Positions 20,201 to 61,099 of a DNA stretch of 64,000 bases are shown here, one piece after another. The DNA is from Minisyncoccia bacterium (lineage in GTDB: Bacteria > Patescibacteriota > Minisyncoccia > Phycocordibacterales > UBA918). The translations under genes and the position numbers were made by a program. Each line of letters starts with the position of its first letter. Position 1 is the stretch's first letter. The notes under the pieces are model-generated. The model was given only the letters and a program-made list of their open reading frames with translations, was not told where the DNA came from and ran no database searches. The stretch is taken from NCBI GenBank assembly GCA_041750655.1, contig JBGSYZ010000011.1, positions 1,794 to 65,793 of the forward strand, written 5' to 3'.

Positions 20201-23200
20201 AGTTGATATCTCTGTCCATGTACCAGCATCAAGAATAACCTTACCGTATTCCCCAACTTCGTTTGAAATAGTAACACTACCGGAAGTTGAGGCGGTCAAA
20301 CCGTTTAGTGTACCCTGTTGGAATTGTTCTCGTGTGGTTTGGAACCACGTCGAGACTGACACACTGGTATCAACAGTAAACGCATCTGGGGCTGACCATG
20401 GCGACCACGCATCTCCTCCATAAGGATCTTTAGCCCTAACTCTCCACCAATACGTCTGACCATTAGTCAGTGCTTCACCACTTTGAATGGTGTACGTAAC
20501 ACTGGCACCTGAGGCATATGGATTGCCAGAAGAAAAACCTGGTGACGTACTCGAGTTACGGGTAGTACTACTGACAAACGTGTAGTCAGTGCCCCACGAT
20601 ATTTCATACTCAAGTAAGTCACCCTGAGGGTCAGTCGTCGTAAAATCTAAGGCTGGTGTAGTGGTGGCTATTTTTTCATTATCAAATGGATCACCAAGAG
20701 TTGGTGTTTCTACACGCTGACCCCAAACAACTGTCCAGTCTTGTATAGATAAAGAGGTACCGGTGAAATTAGCAACGAGTCGAATTTGATTATACGTATC
20801 TGTATCTAGATCAAGTAAATTAATTGGCGACGTTCCGTTCCCAACACTGTTGTTTGCAATCGCACTGTCTGGAATAAGAGACCAAGAAGAACCGTTGAGA
20901 TATTCAATCTGGTACAAGATTGTGCCGCTTGTTTCAGTGTCCCCCCAGGACACTGAACCCCACGCGTTACCGACAGTCGCGTCATCAAAATCTATAGCCG
21001 TACTGGTCATAACTCCACTACTACCACTAACTGACACGGCGCCGGTTGAAGTAGAAAGACTGGTGAGAGCGTTGGTCGAGAATTGATCACCAGTTGTCTG
21101 ATGCCATTCACTAACTGTGACTGAGCCGTCAGTTGTAAAGCTATAGGCTGTTGACCAGTCGCCCCAAGTATTTGAACCACTAGGATCAAGACCACGAACT
21201 CGCCACCAGTAGGTGGTACTAGCTGTCAAACTGCCAGTACCGGTGAAACGAATCCTGGCTCCACTATCAAATGGTGTTTTATCTGACGGAGTATTTACGT
21301 TCTCAAATTGAGAAAGACTGGTCTGAGAATTTTTATCTATAACTGGTGAGCCGAACGCCACATCATCATCAACTTGTATTTGGTAACGAATATCATCTCC
21401 GGCAATATCAGTGGCCGCAAAATCTAATACTACCGGCGATGAACTAGCTGTGCGCTCATTGTTGAAAAATGAAATCAATGTTGGTGCCAGCGGCGGACCG
21501 GCTGTTTCCAATTCTGGATAACTAGTATAGGTCACCAACTCAATACCAGTTGAACGTACCATGCGGAAACAGTAGTTAGAGTTAACGCTAGCGTTATTGC
21601 TGGTTATCGTCCAATCCCATTCTCCGACTTCTCCTGGGTTAATAGTATTTTGCAAAAATTCAGAGAGGTTTTCTTCCTCGTACGTTTCAGATACTGTACT
21701 CGAAGCGAGTGTAGTAGAGGAAAGTATCGTTCCATCAATGAGGGAACCATTGTTATAACCGTTAAACGCTGCCGTGGTGCTACCAATCTCACCAACGTCT
21801 GACCAGGCAGTAGCTACCGAACATTGACCGGTATCAGCTTCTACATACTGTAACTTAAATGCAGTAGAACTGGCTGAGCCGGTAGCCACATTAGCTTGTA
21901 AGTTCATACGCAAACGCATGACATCACCATCATTGACAGCCCCTTGTCCAGTGATAGCTATACCTTCAGTAGCAAAACTTCCCTCTCCAAGTGGCCACGT
22001 ACTCGTCGGTGTTTGGTTAGTACTATTTTCATACCACCCAAACGACAGTTGTTCATACTCGGCATCAATGGTTACTTCTTGAGCTCCAAAACTATAACCA
22101 AAAAATCTATTGGCATATTTACGACCCTGCACACCACCGAGCATATTTGTTTCGTCATTGTCCTCTTCGTCATCTTCATAGATAGCATAAAAAGGTACGC
22201 CATTTGTGGACACTACTTTATACCCAGCAATAAAAGCTAAAGCTGAACCACCTTGTCCATTGTCAAAATATACTTTTCCAGGTGTGTTGGCTCCCGGAGT
22301 ACACGTAGCTCCTTCAACAAACGTGCCATCGTTTTGCTGCACTTCCAATGTAGTGGTTCCAAAGCGTGGTGAACAAGCGATGGCTACATAGGCTGAATCC
22401 GTCGGAATATAATACTGAGTTCCCATTTCATGTCGTGCCCAAAAAGCACTAGACTCGTTACCGTCTCCGTCAGCCTGTTGGATAGCAGTAATTGGATACA
22501 GAGCATTAGTCAAGCGAGCTGCCCCACCTGCCCCCTGTCCCGTAGAAGTACAGGTACCAATTGATTGTTGCTCACCACGAGTCACCCCTGAGACTGTAGC
22601 CGAACTACCGCCCGAACAATAGACAGTTGGATTAGGGTTATCAGTCACGGTCGAAATATACGCGCTACCAGTGTAAATACCAAAAATATCGCGAGTGGTT
22701 GGTGGATACGATACAAAACTATCTCTGCTACCAGTTTCCATGTGGTATACCAAAACTGGTTGCGTTGAAGTTATGACCACGCCGTTACTTCCACTACCAT
22801 CAGTAGTAGAACGGCCAGTAGTTCCAGTGGCTACACTAAAAGTTTGGCTTGGAGTACCGCTGTTACCTAAGTATGTATTAATAGTCGAACTAGCAAACGG
22901 TGAATGAATATAGTATGAACTAGTATTTCTCGTAGTAGGGACAGCAAATGTTGTCGTGGCAAATGAAATTGGAGCCAAAATATCTCCCCCCGCGGAATCA
23001 ATAGTCGCCGCAATTGGACCAAGAGAACTGATAACTGAGGTTGATGAATACGAGCTAAATGTAGTTGGTTCCCCACTATCAAGCGGTACTGGTGTGCCCC
23101 CGTCAATTGAAACTAAGTTGTTGTCTACATAACTATAAACACTTATAGTTCCCCCAGTTAATCCTTCTACTGCATAGTAAATAGGAGTAGTGGTGCTGTA

Positions 23201-26200
23201 GGTAAATGGTGCAAACTCATCACTAGCTGGTGTGGCCGCCGCGTTACCGTAATACATATAGATAGTAGTGGATGCCCCCGCTGGCAGACTGTCCACCTGC
23301 ACCCACACATCTGCCTCGTCAGTACTTGTACTAAAATGTTGCAACCAGTAATCAAGCTCGCTAAAGACTGTGTTAGTAAAGCTTTCTCGAGTGGAAGTAG
23401 CGTAAAAATCGGTTGTGGTGGACTGGTTTCGGTACGTGGCAGTAATCCAGTCATCGCCAGGCACTACATTTAAGAAGCGCATTTCGTCGATTGTGGCGTT
23501 TAGATGTTGTGAGGTATCGCCACTACTTAGACATGAGACATCTTGTTCTAATCCAAGAACGAGACAATTATCTGGAATAGAAAGTGTACTAAGTGACTGA
23601 GAAGAGGGACTGTTATCATCTTCTACTCCATCAATAAAAGCCTTCCACTCATTTCCCACAGTGTCTCGACTGATTAAGACGTGTCGCCAGTTTGGTGCAA
23701 TCGATAGATCATTAATACTAATCGTTGCTCCTGGGAAAAACTGAAGTGTTGTTCCACCACCAGTGTTATAGAGTAAATATTCATTGTTGGCACCTCCATT
23801 GATCAATGCTTGATTACCGGCTTCGGAAGAATTCATCCAGTACATAAACGTGAGCTCTGTTTCACCATTAACTATATCGCTCGGTAAAAGCATGTACTCA
23901 GACGCATCTCCTTGCGCATCTATTTCTTGACCTTGTCCGAGTAAGCCTGTTTTGCCACTTGAGTTAAGTTGATCATCTGCGTCATATTCATTACTGGTAC
24001 TATCTTGATAGAGACCAGCTGTGCCGCGACCAGCCGCCGCTTCTTCCAAGTGATAGACAGCAATAAATTCACTGTTCCATACATTTTGAGCACCATAAGT
24101 ATCTGTCTCTGCATACCCAACTGCGTCTGAATTACCAAAATACAGATAGAAGGTAGTGTCGACTGATGAGGATACATCTCCTTTGAAATGTAATTCTCCT
24201 GTATCAGCACCTGTGTTGATAGATACTAATTCATAAGGAACCTCGGTGGTTCCGTCACTTTCTGTGATTCGAATATCACCACCGTCACTTTTAACTGTAT
24301 TAAAGAAATCAGTTCCAAGGTCAGCTAGGTTTACGTATACAGGAAAATCAGTTTGATCACTATCGACTTGTGAAGATTGAATAGTTATCGGAATACGGTC
24401 AGACCAGCCAGTTCCGTACCACGCGTCTTCCGTACCAGTTGTGGTCTCTTGTACAAAGCGGATATCACTGCCATCATCGTTTACATTAGCCCAGAAGTTT
24501 GTGAGAGAACTATTAAGTTCAAGAAACACTTGTTGTTCAGTTAAATTAGAAGTGCCTGAAGTATTGTCAATAGTAATTGGCAGACGATAGTTCCACTGAC
24601 TAGCCCAGAATGGATCTAAAAGACCATATTCATCATCTCCAATTGCTTCAATCCAAAACTCACCGGTAGTTAATGGCGGGAAGGAAATTTCCATCTTAAA
24701 ATATTTTGTCTCGCCAGGAGCAATAGTATATTCATTGGGAGTATGAGCACGAACTTCAAAAGTATCTGGTTTTGGCTTAATGTCAGGCCCAAAACCAAGC
24801 CAATCTTTGGCTTTCTTAAATAAACTCCTCTTATCTTCAGGTGTTCCTTCAACTACTGTTTCTGGTTCCCAACCATCTACGTATTGAACGAGTTTGTGTT
24901 CTCGTACTTTTACATCGTTTATTCGACATGCTGTGTTGTCTCCATCAATCTCATCACATTCACGGACAATGTTAGTATTGCGACACACATATGTTGTCGC
25001 TAATACTTCATCAGACTCATCATCAGTCTCAGATGAACTAGTTGCCGTACTTAAATTATTTTGAATAGTTGATTGCAATAGTGGAGCTTCGTTATCAACC
25101 GATTTTAGTGTCTCATCATTTGTATCAGGTCCAGATTCTAAGTCTTCAGTTGGAGTTTCCACATCATTCACTGGTCCAGGCTGACTAGTCTCTTCTGGTG
25201 TGTCTTTAGATATGTCTACTTGATCACTGGTATCTGGCTCAGAATTACCATTATCAAAATTATTTTGTTCTGATTCAGGTATAACAGCCGGTTCTATTGT
25301 CGTAGTGTTGTCAGATGATGGTGCTAACAACTTGGATATATCTTCCAAATTACTATTAACCGGATTGTTGGTTAGTTCCCAACCAGCTTCGCAGTGATAC
25401 ACAAAAGGCTTGTACTCAGGTACCACAACATCTTTTGGTTTATTAGAATTCCATTCTTCAATGTTGGTAACTTGTCCAATACCATCAGGGAAATATGTCT
25501 GAAGCTTGAATGTATCTTCAGATTTACTAATGTTGGTAACATTAAAATATAGGGTGCTTTTACTCAATCCAGGATAATTAACTTTGTCTGATTTAATAAT
25601 TAATGTTTCATTAGTATTATCGTCAGTAAAGGTAAAATCTATGTTAGTACCGTCAGGTAATTTTAGCGTATCACCCTTAAGGATTTGATCGTCGTAACCA
25701 TTATCGGTTAGTAGAGTCAAGTTATCTTCTGTCACATCTGGTGATTCTAAGGCAAAGAGTTCAAGCCAAGCACTTTCTACAAAAAGACCGTCTAAAGCTC
25801 TCGGATCATCATCGTAGACTAACTCAATCATCAGGTTGTTTAAAGTGTCTGAATCACTTATTTCTGGCAACGCGAAAAGGAAATACCCTCCGTTAGTACC
25901 ATTAGTTACTTCTTCAGTTATAGTTATCTTACCGGCTTCGGACCAAGACGCTCCATTGTCAAACGAGTATCTAAGTTTAAATAATTGCGCTGCGTCACGA
26001 GTTTTCTTTAGCTTAGCCGCAAAAGAAACTTTTAGTTGAGCGCCGTGAACTGAGAATTTATCATTAAATATTGGCAACCCAAAGTCTGACAATTGGATAG
26101 TGTACTCAGCACACATTTCTCCACACGGATCACTTACCGATGGCACAACAACTGAATCAGGGTTGTCTACGGCTTTGAGAGTACCAGAAGGTAATTCAGT

Positions 26201-27103
26201 TGTAGTAGCTGCTGGTGTAGCAGTAATAATTGGAGGCGTGTTAGTGGCTGGTATAATCTCGTTCGGAACACTGGTCGTTGCAGTAACAGTCTCTTCGCCT
26301 GAGTTTGAAGTTGAAGGAATAACAGATTCTTCTAAGGTCGGTTCCGCAACGAGTGTACTATCACCAGCATCGTCATCAACAAGATCAACACTTTCATCTT
26401 GCGCCACTGGTGTAGTAGTGCTTTCGTTCATAAACGGCAGCCATTTAGTAACAGAGGATAGCACCCAGTTAAGGCCGCCTTTAGCCTTCTTAAATGAGGT
26501 TGTGGTTGGGAACTCTTCGTTATTTACATTGACCTCTGCTTCATACTCAATGTCAGTGTCTGCAGTTTCTACATCAGAATTGGTTTGAGTTTCAACTTCT
26601 TGAGTTGTGGTTGTTTCATCAACTTTATCAATTGTTGGTACTTTAGAGTCATCTATAACTTGTTGACTAGGCAAAGGTGTAAGTGAGCTTGCATCATTTA
26701 TTTTTTCTTCATTTCTATTTTTAATAATCTGCTCGATTGGAACCTCTTCTAAATTAAACCAAGCAGAATTTATCTGATTGAAATCTTGATACAGTGCTAC
26801 TTCACTAACATTTTGTTGGACGAGAGTTTCAGCATTGTTCCAGCCAGGTGCTGAAACTTTACTTGGAAACACATTAATTACTTGGATGTTATAAACGTCC
26901 GCATCATCTGCCGATACTATGTACCAACTAAGTGCTACGCCTGACAACATTAGTAATACAGTAGTAAGCAAATAGGTTTTTTTTCTGAAAATGAAAGATC
27001 TAGACAAGTAACTACTAACAAAAGCCCACGAATATGATTTTATCGCTTTAAATAAGGCTTTATGTAATTTTGCTACTCTTGAATTATGAGGAAAATCTCG
27101 CAT
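8240..27103 (-). CDS. Giant (6287 aa) membrane-anchored multidomain surface protein (adhesin-like): DUF2341+LamG modules, Fn3-like modules, beta-helix super-repeats, Cys-rich C-terminal domain
   Basis: Single uninterrupted 18.9-kb ORF. N-terminal TM at aa ~44-63 (nt 26915..26974). Acidic Ser/Thr/Asp-rich low-complexity stretches at aa 120-320 and 600-700. Three DUF2341-type modules, each with W..R.PITI..., DG.DIRF and Y.YYGN. Two of them (aa 837-995 with 1010-1250, and aa 3226-3330 with 3340-3570) are each followed by a LamG/ConA-like lectin-fold region; the third (aa 5545-5645) is followed by a lectin-fold-like region I did not classify. Two Fn3-like modules ending in TYWWRVR..DP.G...W..WS (aa ~1880-1995 and ~2140-2255). 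Long T/G/S/N-rich stretches typical of parallel beta-helix. Three ~780-aa super-repeats (aa 3596-5530). The aa-to-nt mapping was verified at the DLRFTK codons (nt 10322..10340). Confidence 0.85.
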   Translation of the reverse strand: MRDFPHNSRVAKLHKALFKAIKSYSWAFVSSYLSRSFIFRKKTYLLTTVLLMLSGVALSWYIVSADDADVYNIQVINVFPSKVSAPGWNNAETLVQQNVSEVALYQDFNQINSAWFNLEEVPIEQIIKNRNEEKINDASSLTPLPSQQVIDDSKVPTIDKVDETTTTQEVETQTNSDVETADTDIEYEAEVNVNNEEFPTTTSFKKAKGGLNWVLSSVTKWLPFMNESTTTPVAQDESVDLVDDDAGDSTLVAEPTLEESVIPSTSNSGEETVTATTSVPNEIIPATNTPPIITATPAATTTELPSGTLKAVDNPDSVVVPSVSDPCGEMCAEYTIQLSDFGLPIFNDKFSVHGAQLKVSFAAKLKKTRDAAQLFKLRYSFDNGASWSEAGKITITEEVTNGTNGGYFLFALPEISDSDTLNNLMIELVYDDDPRALDGLFVESAWLELFALESPDVTEDNLTLLTDNGYDDQILKGDTLKLPDGTNIDFTFTDDNTNETLIIKSDKVNYPGLSKSTLYFNVTNISKSEDTFKLQTYFPDGIGQVTNIEEWNSNKPKDVVVPEYKPFVYHCEAGWELTNNPVNSNLEDISKLLAPSSDNTTTIEPAVIPESEQNNFDNGNSEPDTSDQVDISKDTPEETSQPGPVNDVETPTEDLESGPDTNDETLKSVDNEAPLLQSTIQNNLSTATSSSETDDESDEVLATTYVCRNTNIVRECDEIDGDNTACRINDVKVREHKLVQYVDGWEPETVVEGTPEDKRSLFKKAKDWLGFGPDIKPKPDTFEVRAHTPNEYTIAPGETKYFKMEISFPPLTTGEFWIEAIGDDEYGLLDPFWASQWNYRLPITIDNTSGTSNLTEQQVFLELNSSLTNFWANVNDDGSDIRFVQETTTGTEDAWYGTGWSDRIPITIQSSQVDSDQTDFPVYVNLADLGTDFFNTVKSDGGDIRITESDGTTEVPYELVSINTGADTGELHFKGDVSSSVDTTFYLYFGNSDAVGYAETDTYGAQNVWNSEFIAVYHLEEAAAGRGTAGLYQDSTSNEYDADDQLNSSGKTGLLGQGQEIDAQGDASEYMLLPSDIVNGETELTFMYWMNSSEAGNQALINGGANNEYLLYNTGGGTTLQFFPGATISINDLSIAPNWRHVLISRDTVGNEWKAFIDGVEDDNSPSSQSLSTLSIPDNCLVLGLEQDVSCLSSGDTSQHLNATIDEMRFLNVVPGDDWITATYRNQSTTTDFYATSTRESFTNTVFSELDYWLQHFSTSTDEADVWVQVDSLPAGASTTIYMYYGNAAATPASDEFAPFTYSTTTPIYYAVEGLTGGTISVYSYVDNNLVSIDGGTPVPLDSGEPTTFSSYSSTSVISSLGPIAATIDSAGGDILAPISFATTTFAVPTTRNTSSYYIHSPFASSTINTYLGNSGTPSQTFSVATGTTGRSTTDGSGSNGVVITSTQPVLVYHMETGSRDSFVSYPPTTRDIFGIYTGSAYISTVTDNPNPTVYCSGGSSATVSGVTRGEQQSIGTCTSTGQGAGGAARLTNALYPITAIQQADGDGNESSAFWARHEMGTQYYIPTDSAYVAIACSPRFGTTTLEVQQNDGTFVEGATCTPGANTPGKVYFDNGQGGSALAFIAGYKVVSTNGVPFYAIYEDDEEDNDETNMLGGVQGRKYANRFFGYSFGAQEVTIDAEYEQLSFGWYENSTNQTPTSTWPLGEGSFATEGIAITGQGAVNDGDVMRLRMNLQANVATGSASSTAFKLQYVEADTGQCSVATAWSDVGEIGSTTAAFNGYNNGSLIDGTILSSTTLASSTVSETYEEENLSEFLQNTINPGEVGEWDWTITSNNASVNSNYCFRMVRSTGIELVTYTSYPELETAGPPLAPTLISFFNNERTASSSPVVLDFAATDIAGDDIRYQIQVDDDVAFGSPVIDKNSQTSLSQFENVNTPSDKTPFDSGARIRFTGTGSLTASTTYWWRVRGLDPSGSNTWGDWSTAYSFTTDGSVTVSEWHQTTGDQFSTNALTSLSTSTGAVSVSGSSGVMTSTAIDFDDATVGNAWGSVSWGDTETSGTILYQIEYLNGSSWSLIPDSAIANNSVGNGTSPINLLDLDTDTYNQIRLVANFTGTSLSIQDWTVVWGQRVETPTLGDPFDNEKIATTTPALDFTTTDPQGDLLEYEISWGTDYTFVSSTTRNSSTSPGFSSGNPYASGASVTYTIQSGEALTNGQTYWWRVRAKDPYGGDAWSPWSAPDAFTVDTSVSVSTWFQTTREQFQQGTLNGLTASTSGSVTISNEVGEYGKVILDAGTWTEISTQVSYNDPVVVASLRYSMTGDAQRSVRVRNKTADSFEMIVDDPFGTLTGTTTVDYLVMETGVWTLQDGAGGTQVIAGTYANVSDVQGGGGYAASGYGADVTFSPPFSVPPAVIATVSTENDSSWVIAHLNDGNTRNNPPTASAMGLYLGRSNETAVHSPEDIDYIAFEPGHGTNNGAEFDADFGTDSHDEAPPTAEAFTSAFSPSAPEVVIVMQGAEQGGNGAWASLYAATPPTTSNYYPVVDESGDRNHTTEPILTLAFENASGVLLRDSTVGGDLTGEIYSEPILFSDGAGPKFEQLLWNDTEPGTSTITYRLQYLTSTSSWAYIPDAALPNNSIGTTTSPIDLTGLNVSTYNTLRIVGSFSCASGNCPSLQDWTIEWSEGVLMSGTLKQYDRSTNVTSGTVRAAVNGSLLGNTGTVSAGVWSISNVTAFAGDVVTVWVDGAAEANEAVAVFVYDGTGDITGVQMFEQHLSLSSDENGTTTNALLGAYDNSVSGDEDIFFDVDGSNDLSVCAISGCSEASLYIGSGDVYIPDVTSSGNVTTHDFINSGRVELDANTVRVSGSWKNNATFLPETSTIIFTATSTSETVDDADNILDFQNLTFGETSGTATWQTYDPVDVNGALNVTYGTLNRASSTITVAGNLTTGANGFWSGVSTTTFDGSGTSFWSDSNTVKQNVGRVVVDGGAKTITLSSSVYASSTTIGANDTLNAGGANTLFLAGNFTNDNVFSAQTGTIQIVGTSTNAIIKTNGSSLYNVTASTTGSGSISFSESSVSMLGNLTIATGTVTLATATTTIGGSFLNTGGTFAHNNGAVRFTGSGSKSVTLGGTTFLNHLYNVTFAGSGTYTFADINATTSNILRITSGNVVLPSGQLSVARNFITSGSGSFSHNNGEVVLLIEGNDTVTTNGSSFNNLRIRQGSGGSGSWYGSQWTSRVPITIRSSVIDGDLSNFPVYVDLSDLPSAFFSGINTGGGDIRITQSDGITEVPREIVSASTTAETGELYFKASSVSSTTDTIFYIYYGNATATDYAVTATYGAQNVWNNGYVLVSHMNDETTSTIVNSANGSLDGTKLSANNPPQTNLGQIYEAQNFAGTEHIAYGNVGSGAANITISAWINPSNLTGSGDTNTYGYSIFSAHSAGAYTWLTVGGSGGGGSTDEVRFCAFSSSVTCNVANGSNINTGEWHYVSATAIDGGAAAVRVDGNNVLSFTSDGGGTWNSGSTIGDLRPNRDIEFEGILDEIQISNVVRSTAWQDATYRNQGTTTDFYAVGSPQQDSVRTMADINTTVTGNMTVESGQVILPTGVLSIGGSFDNNDGFDANDGTVLFNSTSSSETIAPGSSSFYNLSFNSVSGDWTIIENATSTNNVTLTNAGTLTLNSGLSLYVGGEFTSAVGGASTTWTGSNIILGSGTDYVINTKTAPSDVYATLTVTGDGDVSLWNSSATIYNMLSTASLYSQDHTGVDGDLYIFGNYVRTSGTEHWSYLTDFDGVSLATTTPRQVDVRIQNGATVIASSSGLSIVGSSTASTTIDAQSGSFTLRTNTASVTAQYFEVTGTNASGFQLTSSSTVNTFNNAYFRIPAASSAVTVDASTIDTTPAKQFFDTDFVTAGGNVNVTLSGSPTSYWWFRDGAGDRYGEAFDNADGNPGSIRWDDSSYSIVVSGTVYADDGNSTLGGPTCDGVTNSVRIVVDGGVYSSSTPCSGVDGSYSFGAVNYVGDPSIIVYLDTNGGTTGSVITKTPTANITNLDIYANRVMTRHEDLAPLTIADMAVYDESDDTDIRFVAATGTTDTLTVRADNELYIFASTTFAPGGPVTLTSGGTGNVYDGTLHLGATSTFTGVGTTTYNVGGSIIVEPAAKLTTASSTFVMTATTTGKTITASSTLAFNTLQFTGVGGGWNLNTNITATSGINVATGTLTGTANVTVTNGSFYGDGLVSFGAGTVAIYRSNTYGGVQSWTVNNLTLGNGTVVGTTTPGGTATNTVSGVLTINAAHFLDANNSAWNLTGSGSVFVENGTFLEDTSTVRYGGVLGNTVRNTQYYNLTVEASGGTPTFTAAATGLPVLNNLRVGGTAPTTFTLDTNDPVGSIGGDVYIASNGTLVGSNSATLTVGGAWDNDGTFTNSGGTVTFNSTDAFTIAAGASSFGVVNISGAGAATVIENATSTGAWTLGTTSNFTLNSGNRLAVGGLFTNGAGGAATTWTGSTLHLFGAGQFTINASTTLDQYENLSAAAGTHIRMWNSSATSYLTASGGSVYSMDHLNVTGELYIFGDYIKSSGTDYWSYATDFDGTTLGSGRAVDVYVENGGSFTYSGGSLQMIGSTTASTTVQVQGGSGTYSADITGGGINAQYYILQDLDNDGLTFSGAPTVTTLSNGEFIIGNTGATAMTVAGSVINANPAKNFINNRFATSTGVTAATNVTTSGSTVSSWRFTNHTGDVDGEDFDADNGNPGYIVWDDSLAVITISGNVYENNTSSVSSVCDDVTTNIVLAVAGVVVPAASSTCSSATGAYSISGVSFSPNDTLTLFINSNGGDQGVTVSIDPISSVGDMDIYEDHVILRHESTDPILIADMAVYDSVNDSDIPFTAVDAGSDTLTLNTNTKLIVWANKEFEPQGNITTGGGISDALDGTVELRDNAILTLANTENHAIGGNLEMGTGSVFTPAQSTVTFTSAGSGRTIATNETGFYNLILNGSGTFTSSDTSLRVANDMTLTAGTLTLPNATTTITGSLSVTGGNFVANGGLIVFDSTTAETVVANNSDFNRLLFNGTGSWSMNDTNATATGAITIQKGAVTLPSGVLSVGGSFRNTGGSVVDNTSLLVISTSTSATLLASSSDLYGVTFTGGGTFTMEDNSLTLLDDLILNSGSLTLASGTLSIGGSLDATGGTFTHASGTILFNSSDAGETINPGNNNFNNISIASASGGWTMLTNATTTGNFLLTNAASYTQTAGTVLAVQGVFSNSVGGAATTWTDSTLKLLSGSDYSINTKSAGGDTYGTLYIYDGMDIRMWDSSAATTTLASTSISSLYSQDHANTPGYLYIYGNYTIATGTEYWSYATDFDGTALGGGSRAVNVFVVDSASSSITQTAGNLNIIGAATASTSIQALGGTNYSFDINAGTFNARYYQLRGLDVNGLTFSGIPTVSSLSNGDFEVTVDGGSAITLASTTLNANPSKLIDNVRFATTTAISAFNVNLDATTTNAWTFRDHVGNLSGEDYDADGIDACGSIRWDDSACLLVEQTHYRWRHDDGGEGVPTSEWFDTDWGARQRVRIVNADNATYATTTIKIPVTYDADMQADFEDLRFTKSDGVTELDYWIERYTASSDATVWVEVFELPAQGNLDIFMYYSNVTATTTSSSSATFVVVDDFESGLSGSYSGDTSLFTVDSSFAFGGTKGLDTTGFESSRATDGIASFDRTVSQGQIIRYMQYIDTGAGSSDESCAMFGVQSPVTSNINYGVCLEQFGIERMSLVENVESTDNYGSVNILASTTLTYATGWYEVEIDWQTDNTIDVYLYNSGGTLVATTSAADSSHSSGGFGFTYWGQNGGWDSFTSRYRTNTKPTVIFGAEQTDGGASWATALDTAANTFVIGDVARVRFAVENSGLGITGQQFQIEYAAKGAAPACEAVSAASYNSVPVQSSCGSSPVCMVSSTYYSDGDNTTDLLLETNGTFTSGKIKEDPSSITASLDIDQNEYTELEYAVSPTVNATSSAYCLRVTNAGTDLDSYLSVAELGVAFDPTITAWSLNGGADITLSPGTTTVITASGTVTDLNGYTDLAGATSTTFRSGVTETCTEDQNNCYRSAAPQCAYSACAGNSCTLSCTFDVYYFAEATDMAPYSGETWRSFIELSDQSGATTSAFAPSVDLLTINAITLASTTNSINYGSLTPSADTGSYNATTTVENIGNGNIDISIDGTDLTDGGASTIPVSEQKFASTTFDYSACAFCTTLATTSSAIEVDLFKPTSTTTPVVADVYWGIQIPFGTAAAPHQGSNTFYAVTD
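10516..16318 (-). repeat. Protein-level tandem super-repeats (about 780 aa each, three copies, the third truncated) inside the giant gene
   Basis: Units begin at aa ~3596, ~4397 and ~5163. Each has a beta-helix-like block ending ...TTWTGS.L.L.....Y.IN, then (I/L)(R)MW(N/D)SSA..., YSQDH/YSMDH, LYI(F/Y)G(N/D)Y, WSY.TDFDG, GNPG(S/Y)I(R/V)WDDS, and in units 1 and 2 also ADMAVYD. Copies are diverged at roughly 40-50% identity, so this is not a DNA-identical repeat. Confidence 0.65.
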
Positions 27104-50854: not shown

Positions 50855-51143
50855 TTAGCCCTATTATAGCAACCAAACCAAAGGCCGACCATAAGTAACA
50901 AAAAACTCCTAAAACTGAGTGCGGTTCGAGGTGAGAAGCAATTCATTTTGCTTCGCAAGACCTAATCTAATATTCTAAAACATTTAAGAATATTGATTAG
51001 GTGTACAGCCTCTGTAAGAGGTCTAGAGGTTTTAAAACTAGATGAAATTCGAGGAATTTAGGATTTGGTTAAATGAGCCCTAGTAATTCTACGGTAATTG
51101 AAAATAAATCCATAACGATAAATACATTCCAGTTTTAGGAGTT

Positions 51144-57794: not shown

Positions 57795-58421
57795 TTACGC
57801 TAATTTTTGAGCTACCAGCATAACCAGCATATTTTTCATTCTTTCACCATTTTTGTTACGAGCATACGACAACTCTTCTCTCGTCGACAAATATTTTATA
57901 TCCCAGTCAGCATAAAGTTCTCGCAAGGTATCCTTGCTCGGATAAAAACGACCGGAGATTTCGTTTCGTTCATACAGCTCTCCTTCCGGCATAAAGGTTT
58001 CAATTGTGTGAACCCCGCCGATAGTGGTGTGCGCTTGGGCGTCTTTGATCACCTTCTGTGCGTCTTCGCTACTCATATGATGCAAGATAAAAGACATAAC
58101 TACCACTTCGTATTCTCCTTCTATACCATCCTCGATCACATCACCGACTTTAGTCGTTATAGAAATTTCCTTTTCTAGTACCGCTTTTTTCAGTTTTTCT
58201 AAACCAACCACCGACAAGTCCACTACTTCAACTTCAAAACCTTGCTCAGCCAAGTACAAAGCATCGCGGCCTTCTCCGCCGCCGATATCGAGCACTTGGC
58301 CAGTTTGAATATACTCTTTTATTTTACACACCGACTCGTTTGGCTTTCCATCTCCCAACACCCGCTCTTGCGAGCCATACCAGCTATCATACTGAGCTGT
58401 TAATTGTTCTCGTTTGACCAT
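57795..58421 (-). CDS. Class I SAM-dependent methyltransferase (TehB-like)
   Basis: Motif I VLDIGGGEGRDALYLAEQG, then EVEVVDLS (motif II acidic residue). The ORF track start at 58445 overlaps DUF1653; the internal ATG at 58421 (MVKREQL) avoids the overlap. Confidence 0.65.
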   Translation of the reverse strand: MVKREQLTAQYDSWYGSQERVLGDGKPNESVCKIKEYIQTGQVLDIGGGEGRDALYLAEQGFEVEVVDLSVVGLEKLKKAVLEKEISITTKVGDVIEDGIEGEYEVVVMSFILHHMSSEDAQKVIKDAQAHTTIGGVHTIETFMPEGELYERNEISGRFYPSKDTLRELYADWDIKYLSTREELSYARNKNGERMKNMLVMLVAQKLA

Positions 58422-58423
58422 GT

Positions 58424-58651
58424 TTAGGTTGATTCTTTGATACACTCAAAACGAGGAACCGCAACTCCATCTACTTCCACAGTTTCCATAAACATACTGA
58501 GAGGGCGGACCCACAGCGCTCTTTCTCCAAATTCTTTAGAATCATACAGAGCAAGGTAAACTACCAACTCCTCCAAGGTTTCGCTATGACGGGCTACTCC
58601 TATCACTTCATAGTCTTGCCCTTTGTAATGTCTGTATGTTCCGAGTTTCAT
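58424..58651 (-). CDS. DUF1653-family small protein
   Basis: 75 aa. MKLGTYRHYKGQDYEVIGVARHSETLEELVVYLALY matches the DUF1653 signature (YRHYKG...Y.V...A.HSET.E..VVY). Confidence 0.55.
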   Translation of the reverse strand: MKLGTYRHYKGQDYEVIGVARHSETLEELVVYLALYDSKEFGERALWVRPLSMFMETVEVDGVAVPRFECIKEST

Positions 58652-59328: not shown

Positions 59329-60444
59329 TTACTTATTGATATGACTCATAAATTCTCCATTAATGTCAAAAAGAAAATTTAGTTCATTCTTTTCTATCAA
59401 TTTAATTTCTTCTGGAGAAAGATTCAAATTCAAGTCAGGTCTACTTTCAATATGATACTTTAAAAAATTACCCGGTGTAGCTATACAGTCTTTTAGATCA
59501 TGAAGCTTAGCTTCCCCATTGAATTCAACGTCAATTTTGTATTTACTCTGATGAATATCTATGAAGGATTTGAAAAGGGGTCGATTAGTGATATTCACAT
59601 TTACCGCCTCCATTCTTGAAACAACTTCTCTAAGTTGTATGAACGACAACTGTTTACCTTTTATCTTATCTATAAAGTCCTCGTAGACCGAGCTGAAGAA
59701 TTTTGCATCATCCAATACAGCCACTACCGCATAGTCACCAACCTTAACTGCAATGACACGAGCTGAATGACTATCCATATAATCAAAATCGCAGTTACCA
59801 TCTTCTTCAACGATAGGAATAGCTATCATTGTTCCATACACCAACTCACCTATATCTGCCTGTGAGTAATGACTTCTGGCTACACACCATATGTGATGCA
59901 TTGGTCCCCAATCATAAGTGTCAGCAATCATTGGACTTTCAATTCTACGATCTAACTCAAACCGCCTTTCCTTATCCTTAAGATGATTTTTAATGAAAAT
60001 TAAGGAGAGCCACTTAAATATAAGTTTTCCATCATCTTGGGTAACACTAGCCTTAAAATCCTTGTACTCAGGTTTAAGGATATTTCTTAATGGGGTTTCA
60101 TACACCCTAGATAATTCACCATTACACTCCTCACAACAAGGCAGTGTTTGAGATGCGTATTGGATAAAATAATTATTAGGTAATCTAATTTTTTCATTAT
60201 ATAAATTGAATCGACGTAAAAGCCATCGCGGAATTATGTGCTCGTCACTGAACTTCTTGTCACAGGAATCTATAAGGACACCACATATAAAACAACTATC
60301 GGCATTGACTATTTCATCAACAAAATCATCCAATGGATAATAAATAACCTTCTCATGGTTGTTAAATACTTTTATTATTTTGTTAGTACTGGTGACAACA
60401 TGCGCATGCATCCATAAATTATATAGAAAACTAGCACGAAACAT
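59329..60444 (-). CDS. Hypothetical protein with HNH-like Cys/His motif
   Basis: The ORF track gives 59329..60510, whose N-terminus overlaps the tRNA-like element; the internal start at ~60444 (MFRASFLYNLW...) is more plausible. CFICGVLIDSCDKKFSDEHIIPRW resembles an HNH nuclease core (C-x-x-C...H-I-I-P); further Cys pair CCEECNG. Confidence 0.4.
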   Translation of the reverse strand: MFRASFLYNLWMHAHVVTSTNKIIKVFNNHEKVIYYPLDDFVDEIVNADSCFICGVLIDSCDKKFSDEHIIPRWLLRRFNLYNEKIRLPNNYFIQYASQTLPCCEECNGELSRVYETPLRNILKPEYKDFKASVTQDDGKLIFKWLSLIFIKNHLKDKERRFELDRRIESPMIADTYDWGPMHHIWCVARSHYSQADIGELVYGTMIAIPIVEEDGNCDFDYMDSHSARVIAVKVGDYAVVAVLDDAKFFSSVYEDFIDKIKGKQLSFIQLREVVSRMEAVNVNITNRPLFKSFIDIHQSKYKIDVEFNGEAKLHDLKDCIATPGNFLKYHIESRPDLNLNLSPEEIKLIEKNELNFLFDINGEFMSHINK

Positions 60445-60465
60445 AGTGTCTCGTGCTAGCTCTAA

Positions 60466-60602
60466 ACGGCGGAGAGGGGGGATTCGGTCACGAATAATTT
60501 TGCTAGACAAAATTTTCTCGACCCCAGCTCACTAGTCTTCGACATCGCTCCGCCTTTCGAACCCCCACGCAAGCAAAGCAGTTTGCTTGCCCTCTCTCCG
60601 CG
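60466..60602 (-). ncRNA. tRNA-like element with 8-bp acceptor-type helix and a T-arm split by a 71-nt insertion (function unknown)
   Basis: rc = GCGGAGAG-AGG-[GCAAGCAAA-CTGC-TTTGCTTGC]-GT-GGGGGTTCGA|AGGCGG...(71 nt)...GTGACCGA|ATCCCCC-TCTCCGC-C. Removing the insert recreates GGGGGTTCGAATCCCCC, identical to the T-arm of the neighbouring tRNA-Ser. The 5' and 3' ends pair as in a tRNA acceptor stem. There is no D-arm and no 7-nt anticodon loop. Confidence 0.35.
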
Positions 60603-60604
60603 AA

Positions 60605-60632
60605 CAAAATATGCGCCATAAGGCGCTATTTT
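60605..60632 (-). terminator. Hairpin plus T-run immediately downstream of tRNA-Ser
   Basis: aaaata(t)gcgcc-ataa-ggcgctatttt: a GC-cored stem flanked by an A-run and a T-run (bidirectional intrinsic-terminator shape). Confidence 0.45.
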
Positions 60633-60639
60633 GTACTCG

Positions 60640-60726
60640 CGGAGAGAGGGGGATTCGAACCCCCGATACGGTTTCCCGTATACATCCTTTCCAAGGATGC
60701 GCATTCGACCACTCTGCCATCTCTCC
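60640..60726 (-). tRNA. tRNA-Ser (anticodon GGA), class II with 17-nt variable arm
   Basis: rc = GGAGAGA-TG-GCA-GAGTGGTCGAA-TGC-G-CATCC-TTGGAAA-GGATG-TATACGGGAAACCGTATC-GGGGG-TTCGAAT-CCCCC-TCTCTCC-G. All stems pair perfectly. U33, anticodon GGA, A37, G73 discriminator. 87 nt. CCA is not encoded. Confidence 0.85.
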
Positions 60727-60749
60727 ACTATATTCAATATTAGAACGTT

Positions 60750-60934
60750 CAGTTTTTATATGAGCGTTCGAATCAGCTCCCTCCTTTACTCTGTTCGGCA
60801 CAGCCTCACAACGAGTAATCTGCTCACTTCGTTCGCAGACCGGATGAAAAGTGAAGCTGTTCACTTTTCGTCCACCGCCTTTCAGTCGGATGAAACTTGC
60901 TCCCAGCAACTTTCATCCACTCTGCCATCTCTCC
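60750..60934 (-). ncRNA. tRNA-Ser 5'-segment-derived element (copy 2) with own promoter-like upstream and long hairpins; pseudo-tRNA or novel sRNA
   Basis: rc starts with the identical 18 nt GGAGAGATGGCAGAGTGG and continues with a 13-bp hairpin GGATGAAAGTTGC-TGGGA-GCAAGTTTCATCC, further stems, an AAGGAGG motif and a T-loop-like GAGCTGATTCGAACGCTC. The upstream sequence AACGTTCTTGCTCATATGAATAT resembles that upstream of the real tRNA (AACGTTCTAATATTGAATATAG). Confidence 0.3.
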
Positions 60935-60940
60935 ATATTC

Positions 60941-61099
60941 ATATGAGCAAGAACGTTTATTTTACAGCATGCGTTGGGCTTTGTTTCCACTTTTGGTCTG
61001 TTCACGTTCGTTCACAACGACCAATCCGCTGCTCTGGCGAGACAGCGGACCAGAGAAAATATAAAGCATTTTATATTTTCTCCACTCTGCCATCTCTCC
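60941..61099 (-). ncRNA. tRNA-Ser 5'-segment-derived element (copy 3) with 12-bp AT hairpin and pseudoknot-like a-b-a'-b' arrangement
   Basis: rc = GGAGAGATGGCAGAGTGG + AGAAAATATAAA-ATGC-TTTATATTTTCT hairpin + CTCTGG-TCCGCTG-TCTCG-CCAGAG-CAGCGGA (interleaved complementary segments, H-type pseudoknot topology). Upstream TTGACC ... TATAAAT looks promoter-like. Confidence 0.3.

What the first reader, a model, noticed from the sequence alone, without database searches (positions are those of the whole stretch)
60466..60602. tRNA-like element whose T-arm is interrupted by a 71-nt insertion that, if removed, regenerates a perfect GGGGGTTCGAATCCCCC T-arm
Directly downstream of tRNA-Ser and its terminator hairpin lies GCGGAGAG...[9-bp hairpin]...GT-GGGGGTTCGA|(71-nt insert)|ATCCCCC-TCTCCGC-C. 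The 5' and 3' ends form an 8-bp acceptor-type helix, and excision of the insert yields a T-arm identical to that of tRNA-Ser. There is no D-arm and the middle hairpin has a 4-nt loop, so it is not a decoding tRNA. It could be a split or permuted tRNA remnant, a tRNA-like structure (TLS) at the end of an element, or an intron-containing minihelix. Introns in the T-loop are known in archaeal tRNAs but are unusual in bacteria.
Basis: seen in the sequence. Interest (0 to 1): 0.55.

Follow-up and report, generated by a model that had tools for sequence, protein, structure and literature searches.

The report
Fold-back repeat copying tRNA gene ends
The supposed tRNA with a split T-arm is one copy of a widespread, unannotated, strongly structured ~135-base element that sits behind tRNA genes in uncultured bacteria, folds back on a copy of the tRNA gene's last ~22 bases, and probably serves as a docking or recombination module for small mobile gene cassettes rather than as a tRNA.

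Summary
The sequence features are real, but the "split T-arm" reading does not hold. Element D (60467-60601, minus strand) is a divergent member of a large family of ~135-nt structured elements. They lie directly 3' of tRNA genes in uncultured bacteria: 138 model matches in 0.57 Mb, none matching Rfam.

- **Structure:** all six helices covary (91% of cells paired, against 58% in shuffles).
- **3' arm:** it copies the last ~22 nt of the neighbouring tRNA gene, from the T-loop to the discriminator plus trailer, not CCA. It is 94% identical to the tRNA, whatever the isotype.
- **5' arm:** it is the reverse complement of the 3' arm, split by a branch hairpin.
- **Cap:** a conserved two-hairpin cap (GTACTG, TGTAA) joins the arms.
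- **Key test:** where the tRNA T-loop is not the palindrome TTCGAA, the 5' arm carries the antisense sequence. So "GGGGGTTCGA" is an antisense strand, not half a T-arm.

Copy number and order differ between close relatives, and units form tandem arrays. In the window's lineage they bound small gene cassettes, including the HNH-like gene next to D. A mirror-image family flanks tRNA 5' ends (window elements A and B).

The best reading is a fold-back attachment module of cassettes that target tRNA ends. A structured RNA acting on the tRNA remains a serious rival.

The parts
60639..60726 (-). tRNA-Ser(GGA). Its last ~22 nt (T-loop to discriminator, plus trailer) are the sequence that element D copies.
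   Evidence: ARAGORN; Rfam RF00005 at 60.5 bits.
60603..60638 (-). tRNA trailer with a bidirectional terminator-like hairpin (GCGCC-TTAT-GGCGC, 60613-60626). Its flanks continue the complementarity between the tRNA 3' end and D's 5' arm, giving inverted repeat 60590-60612 / 60628-60650.
   Evidence: Terminator scan; inverted repeat I2, 23 nt at 83%. The same trailer and hairpin occur in L003, L116 and L134.
60467..60601 (-). Element D as a whole: a fold-back unit of the tRNA-3'-end family, in a variant with a short P4 and a long P5.
   Evidence: Model R1 at 31.8 bits, E = 6e-5, model positions 1-136. Fold z = -4.5. Ortholog L134 372-508(-) shows 3 compensatory changes.
60591..60601 (-). 5' arm, outer part (GCGGAGAGAGG). 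It is antisense to the tRNA-Ser acceptor 3' strand, discriminator and first trailer base. It pairs with 60469-60476 (helix P1).
   Evidence: I10; family helix 1 covaries.
60569..60590 (-). P2 branch hairpin (GCAAGCAAA-CTGC-TTTGCTTGC). It interrupts the antisense arm at the acceptor/T-stem boundary.
   Evidence: Family helix 2 is 94.8% paired and all 9 pairs covary. A C-G to U-A change relative to L134 keeps the pair.
60556..60566 (-). 5' arm, inner part (GGGGGTTCGAA). It is antisense to the tRNA T-loop and T-stem 3' strand. It pairs with 60477-60486 (helix P3).
   Evidence: Antisense nature shown by units behind tRNAs with TTCGAT or TTCAAA T-loops.
60525..60555 (-). Shortened P4 equivalent: a 3-bp stem plus the GA-flanked mini hairpin GTC-GAA-GAC (60535-60543).
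   Evidence: Consensus fold with L134: G-C to A-U compensatory change, mini hairpin kept as GTCG-CTCG-CGAC.
60486..60523 (-). P5, here extended to a long hairpin (GGTCG...GAAAATTTTG-TCTAG-CAAAATTATTC...TGACC). It replaces the usual 4-bp stem with a TGTAA loop.
   Evidence: G-C to C-G compensatory change relative to L134. Family P5 is 99% paired.
60469..60485 (-). 3' arm (GAATCCCCCCTCTCCGC): a sense copy of tRNA-Ser from the T-loop to just past the discriminator.
   Evidence: Direct repeats D8 and D14 with the tRNA. Across the family, 711 of 755 aligned positions are identical to the adjacent tRNA.
60425..60462 (-). Motif "Y": hairpin CTAGCACGA-GACACTATGTT-TCGTGCTAG plus TTTTCT, then TATATAAT. 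In relatives it follows the 3' end of a unit or of tRNA-Ser and opens a gene cassette.
   Evidence: Inverted repeat I8. Conserved in L002, L003, L004, L072, L075, L103, L119 and L123.
59329..60408 (-). HNH-like ORF (359 aa), the cassette gene that follows D and Y.
   Evidence: Homologs carry PF14279; invariant CxxC...EH...CCxxCN motif. HNH_5 only at E = 0.06 for this copy. In L072 the gene is bounded by units on both sides.
60727..61099 (-). Elements A (60935-61099) and B (60727-60934). Each starts with an exact copy of the first 18 nt of tRNA-Ser, followed by hairpins. In A, a downstream antisense segment pairs with the copy. These are the 5'-side mirror image of D.
   Evidence: (D1, I1). Comparable 5'-side elements occur at 8 of 111 tRNAs elsewhere.
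50957..51027 (+). Degenerate partial copy of the cap (P4, GTACAG, CCTC-TGTAA-GAGG) without tRNA-like arms.
   Evidence: R1 at 29.7 bits, E = 1.8e-4, model positions 46-122; sequence.

Best explanation
D is a fold-back attachment module that acts at the DNA level. Its 3' arm is a sense copy of the last ~22 bp of the tRNA-Ser gene. Its 5' arm is the reverse complement. When one strand folds (as single-stranded DNA or an extruded cruciform), the arms rebuild a duplex copy of the tRNA gene's 3' end, with a branch hairpin (P2) and a conserved two-hairpin cap (P4, P5).

**Shown:**
- the architecture and its covariation;
- the sense/antisense relation to whichever tRNA lies upstream;
- tandem arrays, and differences between close relatives;
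- the position of units at cassette borders.

**Inferred:**
- The cap is the handle for a recombinase encoded elsewhere, and the arms set the target.
- Recombination between the sense arm and the identical stretch of the tRNA gene inserts the unit, alone or with one or two cargo genes, behind the tRNA.
- This leaves the tRNA intact and places a fresh copy of the target at the far end, where the next unit or cassette can land.

The HNH-like gene next to D would be such a cassette. The logic resembles integron attC sites and the folded attP of CTX phage.
For: 1. **The arms track the gene, not the mature tRNA.** The 3' arm equals the adjacent tRNA's 3' end, including the discriminator and 1-3 trailer bases rather than CCA. 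This holds for Ser, Tyr, Pro, Val, Arg, Gln, His, Asn, Ala and Gly (711 of 755 positions identical). The 5' arm is the perfect complement, not a copy of the tRNA 5' strand: the tRNA-Tyr T4.G69 wobble is not reproduced.
2. **Non-palindromic T-loops.** In all 6 such cases the 5' arm is antisense. The helix is therefore a duplex image of the gene end, not a T-arm.
3. **Dynamics at one orthologous tRNA-Ser(GGA) locus**:
   - window: 1 unit;
   - L003: 2 tandem units;
   - L116: 1 unit with a decayed 3' arm;
   - L134: a unit inserted between the tRNA and its original trailer and terminator, followed by the D ortholog;
   - L163: tRNA end, trailer and terminator duplicated after the unit;
   - L119: a gene cassette inserted exactly after ...CTCTCCGC.
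4. **Arrays and multiple copies.** L157 has tRNA-Val and tRNA-Arg with one unit each and tRNA-Ser with three. Truncated and degenerate copies exist.
5. **Cassettes.** The layout Y - gene(s) - X (ending in a degenerate tRNA-Ser 3' end) - terminator - unit recurs in L103, L072, L119, L123 and L154. The same HNH gene follows tRNA-Ser units in the window and L003, and a Ser-type partial unit behind tRNA-Pro in L002.
6. **Symmetry.** A mirror family sits at tRNA 5' ends with the same sense-distal, antisense-proximal layout. Simple recombination between the sense arm and the tRNA end predicts exactly this.
7. **No promoter.** No promoter-like site lies directly upstream of D, and a terminator sits between the tRNA and D.
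Against: - No recombinase, integrase or transposase was found next to the units or in the window.
- No excised circle and no clean empty-versus-filled pair of otherwise identical sites was observed.
- No source of single-stranded DNA is known for these hosts.
- The invariant junction and loop bases with freely covarying stems look just like a functional RNA.
- The sense strand folds better than its complement in 100 of 115 units, and G.U exceeds A.C by 240 to 150. This fits RNA at least as well as DNA.
- Occupancy behind tRNA-Ser (37 of 40), Tyr (5 of 5) and Pro (9 of 11) is high for a purely selfish element, although the loci were chosen for carrying a unit.
- The strict pattern found nothing in viral contigs.
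Confidence: 0.45

Rival explanations
1. A structured non-coding RNA, made from the tRNA strand by read-through or its own start. Its long helix presents the tRNA's 3' segment and its antisense, and its conserved three-way junction (P3, P4, P5) binds a protein or ligand. It would act in trans or in cis on tRNA metabolism, for example as a decoy or substrate mimic for an enzyme that handles the tRNA 3' region.
For: - Six covarying helices with invariant junction bases (GTACTG, TGTAA loop, GA-flanked mini hairpins) across 135 distinct copies.
- Strand asymmetry of folding and of G.U against A.C.
- About half of the linkers are short GA-loops without a terminator, so the unit must be co-transcribed with the tRNA.
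- Units are often followed by terminator-like hairpins.
- Very high occupancy behind Ser, Tyr and Pro tRNAs.
- The D-type variant is maintained by compensatory changes.
Against: - The helix includes the discriminator and gene trailer rather than CCA. It therefore mimics the gene or precursor, not the mature tRNA.
- The T-loop bases are paired, so there is no tRNA elbow.
- Terminators separate many units from the tRNA, and no promoter is seen.
- Many decayed copies, tandem arrays and rearrangements between close relatives.
- No Rfam family matches.
Confidence: 0.3
2. A cis-acting switch on tRNA maturation. The antisense arm can pair either with the tRNA's own 3' end (long hairpin P0, which misfolds the tRNA) or with the unit's distal sense arm (P1/P3, which frees the tRNA). 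The capped junction would decide between the two. The 5'-side elements would do the same for the tRNA 5' end.
For: - The S - antisense - S layout allows two exclusive hairpins on both sides of the tRNA (I2 and I10, 41, 99).
- The antisense arm pairs equally well with the tRNA and with its own sense arm: 16 against 11 at discriminating positions.
- In the window the 5' arm matches the tRNA end better (12 of 12) than its own 3' arm.
Against: - Intrinsic terminators lie between the tRNA and the antisense arm in many loci, including the window.
- Orphan units occur with no tRNA upstream: 37 of 124.
- Tandem arrays of up to three units are hard to explain as switches.
Confidence: 0.12
3. One reading: a tRNA-like minihelix or tRNA remnant whose T-loop carries an intron-like 71-nt insertion, or simply a decaying partial duplicate of tRNA-Ser.
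For: - Exact 10-11-nt matches to both halves of the tRNA-Ser T-arm, and an 8-bp terminal helix.
- The window copy is a low-scoring, divergent member (31.8 bits).
Against: - The left half is antisense in every informative case.
- The "insertion" is a conserved, covarying domain.
- The same core follows tRNAs of many isotypes.
- The tRNA, tmRNA and permuted-gene searches are negative.
Confidence: 0.03

Closest known systems
Integron attC sites (cassette-associated recombination sites recognised as folded single strands by IntI; from established knowledge)
   Same: - An imperfect inverted repeat of about 60-140 nt whose stems covary while few bases are fixed.
- The folded strand rebuilds a duplex resembling the primary site.
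- One site sits at the end of each small, often promoterless cassette.
- Arrays build up next to the primary site.
   Different: - No GTTRRRY/RYYYAAC core, and no intI nearby.
- The primary site is a tRNA gene end rather than attI.
- The arms are re-specified for at least ten different tRNAs.
- The terminal structure is a conserved two-hairpin junction rather than a variable loop.
- Many units carry no gene at all.
Folded attP(+) of CTX-type filamentous phages and other Xer-exploiting elements (from established knowledge)
   Same: - Two inverted copies of a host target sequence, separated by about 70-90 nt, fold into a forked hairpin that mimics the double-stranded chromosomal site.
- No recombinase is encoded in cis.
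- Tandem arrays occur at the target.
   Different: - The target is a tRNA 3' end, not dif.
- No phage genes are present.
- The unit is only ~135 nt.
- A branch hairpin sits inside one arm.
- Any role for Xer is untested.
Genomic islands and integrative elements that use the T-loop to 3' end of tRNA genes as attB (sublocation classes described by Williams 2002; from established knowledge)
   Same: - A direct repeat of the tRNA 3' segment bounds the inserted DNA, and the tRNA is restored (L134, L163, L119).
- Successive insertions accrete in tandem.
   Different: - No integrase gene.
- The insert can be as small as ~150 bp.
- The element carries an antisense copy of the target and a conserved structured cap. 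Ordinary attP sites do not.
tRNA-like RNAs: viral 3' TLS, tmRNA tRNA-like domain, bacterial Y RNA (YrlA), mascRNA
   Same: Terminal helix with acceptor sequence; adjacency to, or derivation from, tRNA; not decoding.
   Different: - No T-loop or elbow, because the T-loop bases are paired with their antisense.
- The helix covers the discriminator and trailer.
- No CCA logic.
- No Rfam or ARAGORN hit.
REP/BIME and other small structured intergenic repeats (for example IS200/IS605-derived palindromic elements)
   Same: Short, multi-copy, hairpin-forming, located after genes or terminators, and probably mobilised in trans.
   Different: - Arms are copied from the neighbouring tRNA gene.
- Strict association with tRNA ends.
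- Much more elaborate and conserved junction.
- No RAYT or TnpA found nearby.

Membership tests
tRNA (Rfam RF00005, ARAGORN) | Cloverleaf with D-arm, 7-nt anticodon loop and T-arm | tested here: not met
   Only 60639-60726 is called. Nothing is found at 60466-60602 even at E <= 10.
Intron-containing or split/permuted tRNA | Both halves of the interrupted arm are in the sense orientation, so excision restores a real T-stem and T-loop | tested here: not met
   In 6 of 6 units behind tRNAs with TTCGAT or TTCAAA T-loops, the 5' half is the reverse complement (ATCGAA, TTTGAA). ARAGORN's permuted and tmRNA modes were negative.
tmRNA / YrlA / other curated tRNA-like RNAs | Match to the curated covariance model | tested here: not met
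   Rfam 15: no hit in the window region, in 20 related loci, or in a canonical unit at E <= 1.
tRNA-3'-end fold-back unit family (defined here, model R1) | Full-length match to a model of P1-P5 built from other loci | tested here: met
   60467-60601(-), 31.8 bits, E = 6e-5, model positions 1-136. P4 and P5 are atypical, as in the ortholog in L134.
tRNA-3'-end fold-back unit family (defined here, model R1) | 3' arm identical to the 3' end of the tRNA immediately upstream, with the 5' arm complementary | tested here: met
   GAATCCCCCC-TCTCCGC against tRNA GAATCCCCC-TCTCTCCGC. The 5' arm GCGGAGAGAGGG is the exact complement of the tRNA's CCCTCTCTCCGC.
Integron attC | R''/R' core sites (RYYYAAC ... 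GTTRRRY) at the ends of the fold-back | tested here: not met
   Read directly: the arms are tRNA-derived (GCGGAGAG ... CTCTCCGC) and the family consensus has no such core.
Integron attC | intI integrase and attI at the head of the array | tested here: not met
   No integrase domain among the window's large ORFs or among recurrent neighbours of units.
Integron attC | Recombination as a folded single strand | not testable with these tools
   Needs recombination assays or read-level evidence.
tRNA-targeting integrative element (att duplication) | Direct repeat of the tRNA 3' segment flanking the inserted DNA, with the tRNA left intact | tested here: met
   L134 (original trailer displaced behind the unit), L163 and L111 (end plus trailer duplicated), L119 (cassette between the tRNA and a degenerate 3'-end copy).
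tRNA-targeting integrative element (att duplication) | Element encodes its own tyrosine or serine integrase | tested here: not met
Xer-dependent folded attP (CTX-type) | The arms form a dif-like XerC/XerD site | not tested
   The arms are tRNA sequence. No dif comparison was made.

The most novel reading that the evidence does not exclude
The units are programmable fold-back attachment sites. A conserved cap recruits a host-encoded recombinase, and the sense/antisense arms alone specify the target. In this way one machinery inserts empty units or small gene cassettes at the 3' end of many different tRNA genes, and through the mirror family at their 5' ends. This would be a natural, hairpin-guided, integron-like gene-capture system in uncultured small-genome bacteria.
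Probability: 0.2. Interest if true: 0.85.

Novelty: new variant of a known kind. Interest (0 to 1): 0.72.

Why it matters
**If the DNA reading is right:** this is a cassette-capture system whose target is set by simple sequence identity within a hairpin, and it has been re-aimed at many tRNA genes. That bears on how small-genome uncultured bacteria acquire genes. It could also point to a recombinase that reads a programmable DNA hairpin.

**If the RNA reading is right:** it is a large new class of structured RNA coupled to individual tRNAs.

**Either way:**
- Annotation pipelines miss the element.
- It breaks assemblies at tRNA loci: two contigs of one sample end inside this region.
- It can be mistaken for tRNA pseudogenes or split tRNAs.

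Tried and rejected
- **Rfam.** Searched at gathering and permissive thresholds on the window, 20 related loci and a canonical unit. Only tRNAs matched.
- **Phage records.** A DNA search found only the tRNA-Ser itself. The strict unit pattern found nothing in viral contigs.
- **HNH ORF as a partner of the element.** I first suspected this. Its homologs occur in many phyla and mostly lie far from tRNAs, so the link is specific to this lineage.
- **Conserved neighbouring gene or recombinase.** Immediate neighbours and all 620 ORFs in the loci were clustered. Only housekeeping synteny appeared.
- **A and B against the 3'-unit model.** They do not match it. They belong to a separate 5'-side kind.
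- **Telling RNA from DNA.** Strand asymmetry favours the tRNA strand but cannot separate RNA from single-stranded DNA.
- **Does the antisense arm follow the tRNA or its own sense arm?** The test showed no preference.
- **Ribozyme, riboswitch, retron, bridge-RNA and omega-RNA readings.** All were considered from memory. They were set aside because the arms are fully self-complementary and no partner protein gene is linked.
- **Literature.** Four full-text searches found no description of such elements.
- **Host.** Assignment to Patescibacteria/CPR is only an impression from neighbouring genes such as the T4SS_pilin PF18895 family. It was not tested.

Full report
**1. What is at the coordinates.**
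All features lie on the minus strand.
- tRNA-Ser(GGA) is at 60639-60726 (ARAGORN; Rfam tRNA, 60.5 bits).
- A bidirectional terminator-like hairpin is at 60613-60626.
- Element D follows: GCGGAGAG-AGG, a 9-bp hairpin with loop CTGC, GT, GGGGGTTCGAA, about 70 nt, CCGAATCCCCCC-TCTCCGC.
- D folds far better than shuffles: -58.4 kcal/mol, z = -4.5.
- No tRNA, tmRNA or other Rfam family matches D, even at E <= 10.

**2. D belongs to a large family.**
- Close homologs of the downstream ORF led to contigs carrying D-like units: L003 has two in tandem behind the same tRNA-Ser, and L072 and L074 have others.
It found nothing in viral contigs.
- A covariance model built from eight units of other loci (R1) finds D full length at 31.8 bits, E = 6e-5 for the window.
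- R1 finds 138 matches in 0.57 Mb of the fetched loci.
- On that alignment 91% of cells form pairs, against 58% in shuffles and 39-50% in slid controls. Of 46 pairs, 45 show double changes. The alignment is fitted to the model, but an independent MAFFT/RNAalifold analysis gives the same result for P3-P5, and a direct count gives it for P5.
- Neither 20 related loci nor a canonical unit match any Rfam family.

**3. Anatomy of a unit.**
Read on the tRNA strand, the order is:
1. 5' arm, outer part (P1);
2. branch hairpin P2, variable in sequence;
3. GT;
4. 5' arm, inner part, typically GGGATTCGAA (P3);
5. long hairpin P4, with a GA-flanked mini hairpin at its tip, often GCGAAGC or ACGAAGT;
6. (G/A)TACTG;
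7. P5, a 4-bp stem with a TGTAA loop;
8. (C/A)GAA;
9. 3' arm.

D is a variant with a shortened P4 and a much longer P5. The same variant sits at the same place in L134 (372-508, minus strand), and three compensatory double changes preserve its helices. D is therefore maintained, not decaying.

**4. Relation to the tRNA.**
- Of 124 units with enough upstream sequence, 69 follow a tRNA and 18 follow another unit.
- Occupancy in the sampled loci is Ser 37 of 40, Tyr 5 of 5 and Pro 9 of 11. It is partial for Val, Arg, Gly and Gln, and zero for Leu and Met. The loci were selected for having a unit, so this sample is biased.
- The 3' arm repeats the T-loop, T-stem 3' strand, acceptor 3' strand and discriminator of whichever tRNA lies upstream, plus one to three trailer bases rather than CCA. 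It matches at 711 of 755 aligned positions.
- The 5' arm is the exact complement of that stretch. It is not a copy of the tRNA 5' strand: the tRNA-Tyr T4.G69 wobble is not reproduced.
- The decisive test comes from tRNAs whose T-loop is not the palindrome TTCGAA. In all six (five TTCGAT, one TTCAAA) the 3' arm carries the tRNA's sequence and the 5' arm carries ATCGAA or TTTGAA, the reverse complement.

The "left half of the T-arm" is therefore an antisense strand. P1 plus P3 is a fold-back duplex image of the last ~22 bp of the tRNA gene. The apparent regeneration of a perfect T-arm on excision is a by-product of TTCGAA being self-complementary. This disposes of the intron or split-T-loop reading.

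**5. Dynamics.**
The orthologous tRNA-Ser(GGA) locus differs among close relatives:

| Locus | Layout |
|---|---|
| Window | tRNA, terminator, D, then motif Y and the HNH-like gene |
| L003 | two tandem units before Y and the HNH gene |
| L116 | one unit with a decayed 3' arm |
| L134 | a unit between the tRNA and its original trailer and terminator, followed by the D ortholog |
| L163 | tRNA end, trailer and terminator repeated after the unit |
| L119 | a gene cassette inserted exactly after ...CTCTCCGC of the tRNA, ending in a degenerate copy of the tRNA 3' end (X), a terminator and a unit |

- Other contigs carry several units. In L157, tRNA-Val and tRNA-Arg have one each and tRNA-Ser has three.
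- Truncated copies are common. The window holds a second, degenerate cap at 50957-51027 on the plus strand.
- Linkers between a tRNA or unit and the next unit are of two kinds. One is a terminator hairpin whose flanks extend the complementarity. The other is a short loop, (A/C)GTGAACGAAGTGAAC(A)A, the same motif as the tip of P4.

**6. Cassettes.**
- In the window's lineage a module recurs: Y (GAGCTAGCACGAGACACTATGTTTCGTGCTAG plus a TATAAT-like box), then gene(s), then X, then a terminator, then a unit. It is seen in L103 twice and in L072, L119, L123 and L154.
- The HNH-like gene is one such cargo. In L072 it has units on both sides. It follows tRNA-Ser units in the window and L003. In L002 it follows a Ser-type partial unit behind tRNA-Pro.
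- Its distant homologs occur in many phyla away from tRNAs, so the gene itself is not part of the mechanism.
- No recombinase, integrase or transposase is found in the window or enriched near units.

**7. A mirror family at 5' ends.**
- In the window, elements A and B each begin with an exact copy of the first 18 nt of tRNA-Ser.
- In A this copy pairs with a downstream antisense segment, giving 31-nt arms (I1).
- Elsewhere, 8 of 111 tRNAs have an exact copy of their first 14 nt or more, 68-232 nt upstream. A long and a short hairpin follow it. In five or six of the eight, an antisense segment of 7-12 nt comes next, then a GA-rich linker. L096 has two tandem copies.

The layout around a tRNA is thus symmetric: sense copy, cap, antisense, linker, tRNA, linker, antisense, cap, sense copy.

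**8. Interpretation.**
The arms follow the gene sequence, including the trailer. Both ends of tRNA genes show the same sense-distal, antisense-proximal layout. Arrays and rearrangements are frequent, and units bound cassettes.

These facts fit best with recombination between the sense arm and the identical stretch of the tRNA gene. The fold-back would supply a duplex partner site, and the conserved cap would supply the handle for a recombinase acting in trans. The closest precedents are integron attC sites and the folded attP of CTX-type phages. I give this 0.45.

It is inferred, not shown. No recombinase, no excised form and no single-stranded intermediate was seen.

The main rival (0.30) is a structured RNA. 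Invariant junction bases with covarying stems, better folding of the tRNA strand (100 of 115), G.U over A.C (240 to 150) and co-transcription through short linkers all fit it. A cis switch on tRNA folding (0.12) uses the two exclusive pairings of the antisense arm. It struggles with terminators between the tRNA and the unit, with orphans and with triple arrays. The intron or pseudogene reading is at 0.03.

**9. Novelty.**
No Rfam family matches, and four full-text literature searches found no description. The logic has precedents in attC, CTX attP and tRNA att duplication. The combination does not: arms copied from many different tRNA ends, a conserved two-hairpin cap, a branch in the antisense arm, and a mirror family at 5' ends. 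I rate it a new variant of a known kind, with a 0.2 chance that it is a programmable hairpin-guided cassette system. The host looks like small-genome uncultured bacteria, on the evidence of neighbours such as T4SS_pilin PF18895. That assignment was not tested.

Noticed in passing
window 60727-61099 (-): Two tandem elements, A and B, upstream of tRNA-Ser. Each starts with an exact 18-nt copy of the tRNA 5' end followed by long hairpins. They share the motif AGCRGATTnnTCGTTGTGA..GAACAGAnnAAA with covarying nn. They are the 5'-side mirror of D. Similar elements occur upstream of 8 of 111 tRNAs in the related loci (L094, L096, L117, L125, L150, L180, L190, L195).
   Followed up: partly
window 50957-51027 (+): Degenerate partial copy of the unit cap (P4, GTACAG, CCTC-TGTAA-GAGG), preceded by a P2-like hairpin but lacking tRNA-like arms. 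It lies in the intergenic gap between a Peptidase_S24 gene and a CAP-domain gene, on the opposite strand to most genes.
   Followed up: partly
window 60425-60462 (-); L103 1940-2060 and 3213-3305; L072 2196-2292; L119 606-640 and 1026-1119: Lineage-specific cassette border motifs: Y (GAGCTAGCACGAGACACTATGTTTCGTGCTAG) and X (GCWCGAGACAC ... GGTCAAGCCTACCTTGACC ... GGTTCTAGCTCGAGnnAGCCCGC). The 11-mer GCWCGAGACAC recurs at the start of X, the end of X and in Y. This suggests a second recombination core distinct from the tRNA-derived arms.
   Followed up: partly
linkers and P4 tips in many loci, e.g. L145 3419-3436, L084, L117; window 60826-60840 (-) inside element B: A GA-flanked mini hairpin motif (GAACGAAGTGAAC, GAGCGAAGCGAAC) recurs at the tip of P4, in the short linkers between the tRNA and the unit, and in the 5'-side elements. 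GCGAAGC is known as an unusually stable DNA mini hairpin (from memory).
   Followed up: no
window 8240-27103 (-): A single ORF of 6287 aa. Its neighbours carry fibronectin-III, cohesin, dockerin and WxL-interacting domains, so it is probably a giant surface protein.
   Followed up: no
window 59329-60408 (-) and loci L009-L071: The HNH-like protein (N-terminal CxxC...EH...CCxxCN motif plus an unknown C-terminal domain) has full-length homologs at 25-38% identity. They are found in Bacteroidota, Proteobacteria, Planctomycetota, Acidobacteriota and others, mostly not next to tRNAs. No PADLOC match.
   Followed up: partly
L001 (ends at window ~61034) and L196 (starts at window ~60668): Two short-read contigs from the same sample (SRR28170474) stop inside the A/B/tRNA region. 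The repeated 18-mer and the tRNA-end copies evidently break assemblies.
   Followed up: no
window 57795-58445 (-): A TehB-like SAM methyltransferase three genes downstream of D matches the PADLOC model mad2 (4e-10). It may belong to a defence-type or cassette-type region following the HNH gene.
   Followed up: no
L107 6423-6559, L097, L104, L089, L152 2336-2467: A sub-variant of the unit carries an extra small hairpin (for example AAGCGTATTCGTGA) between the CGAA junction and the 3' arm.
   Followed up: no
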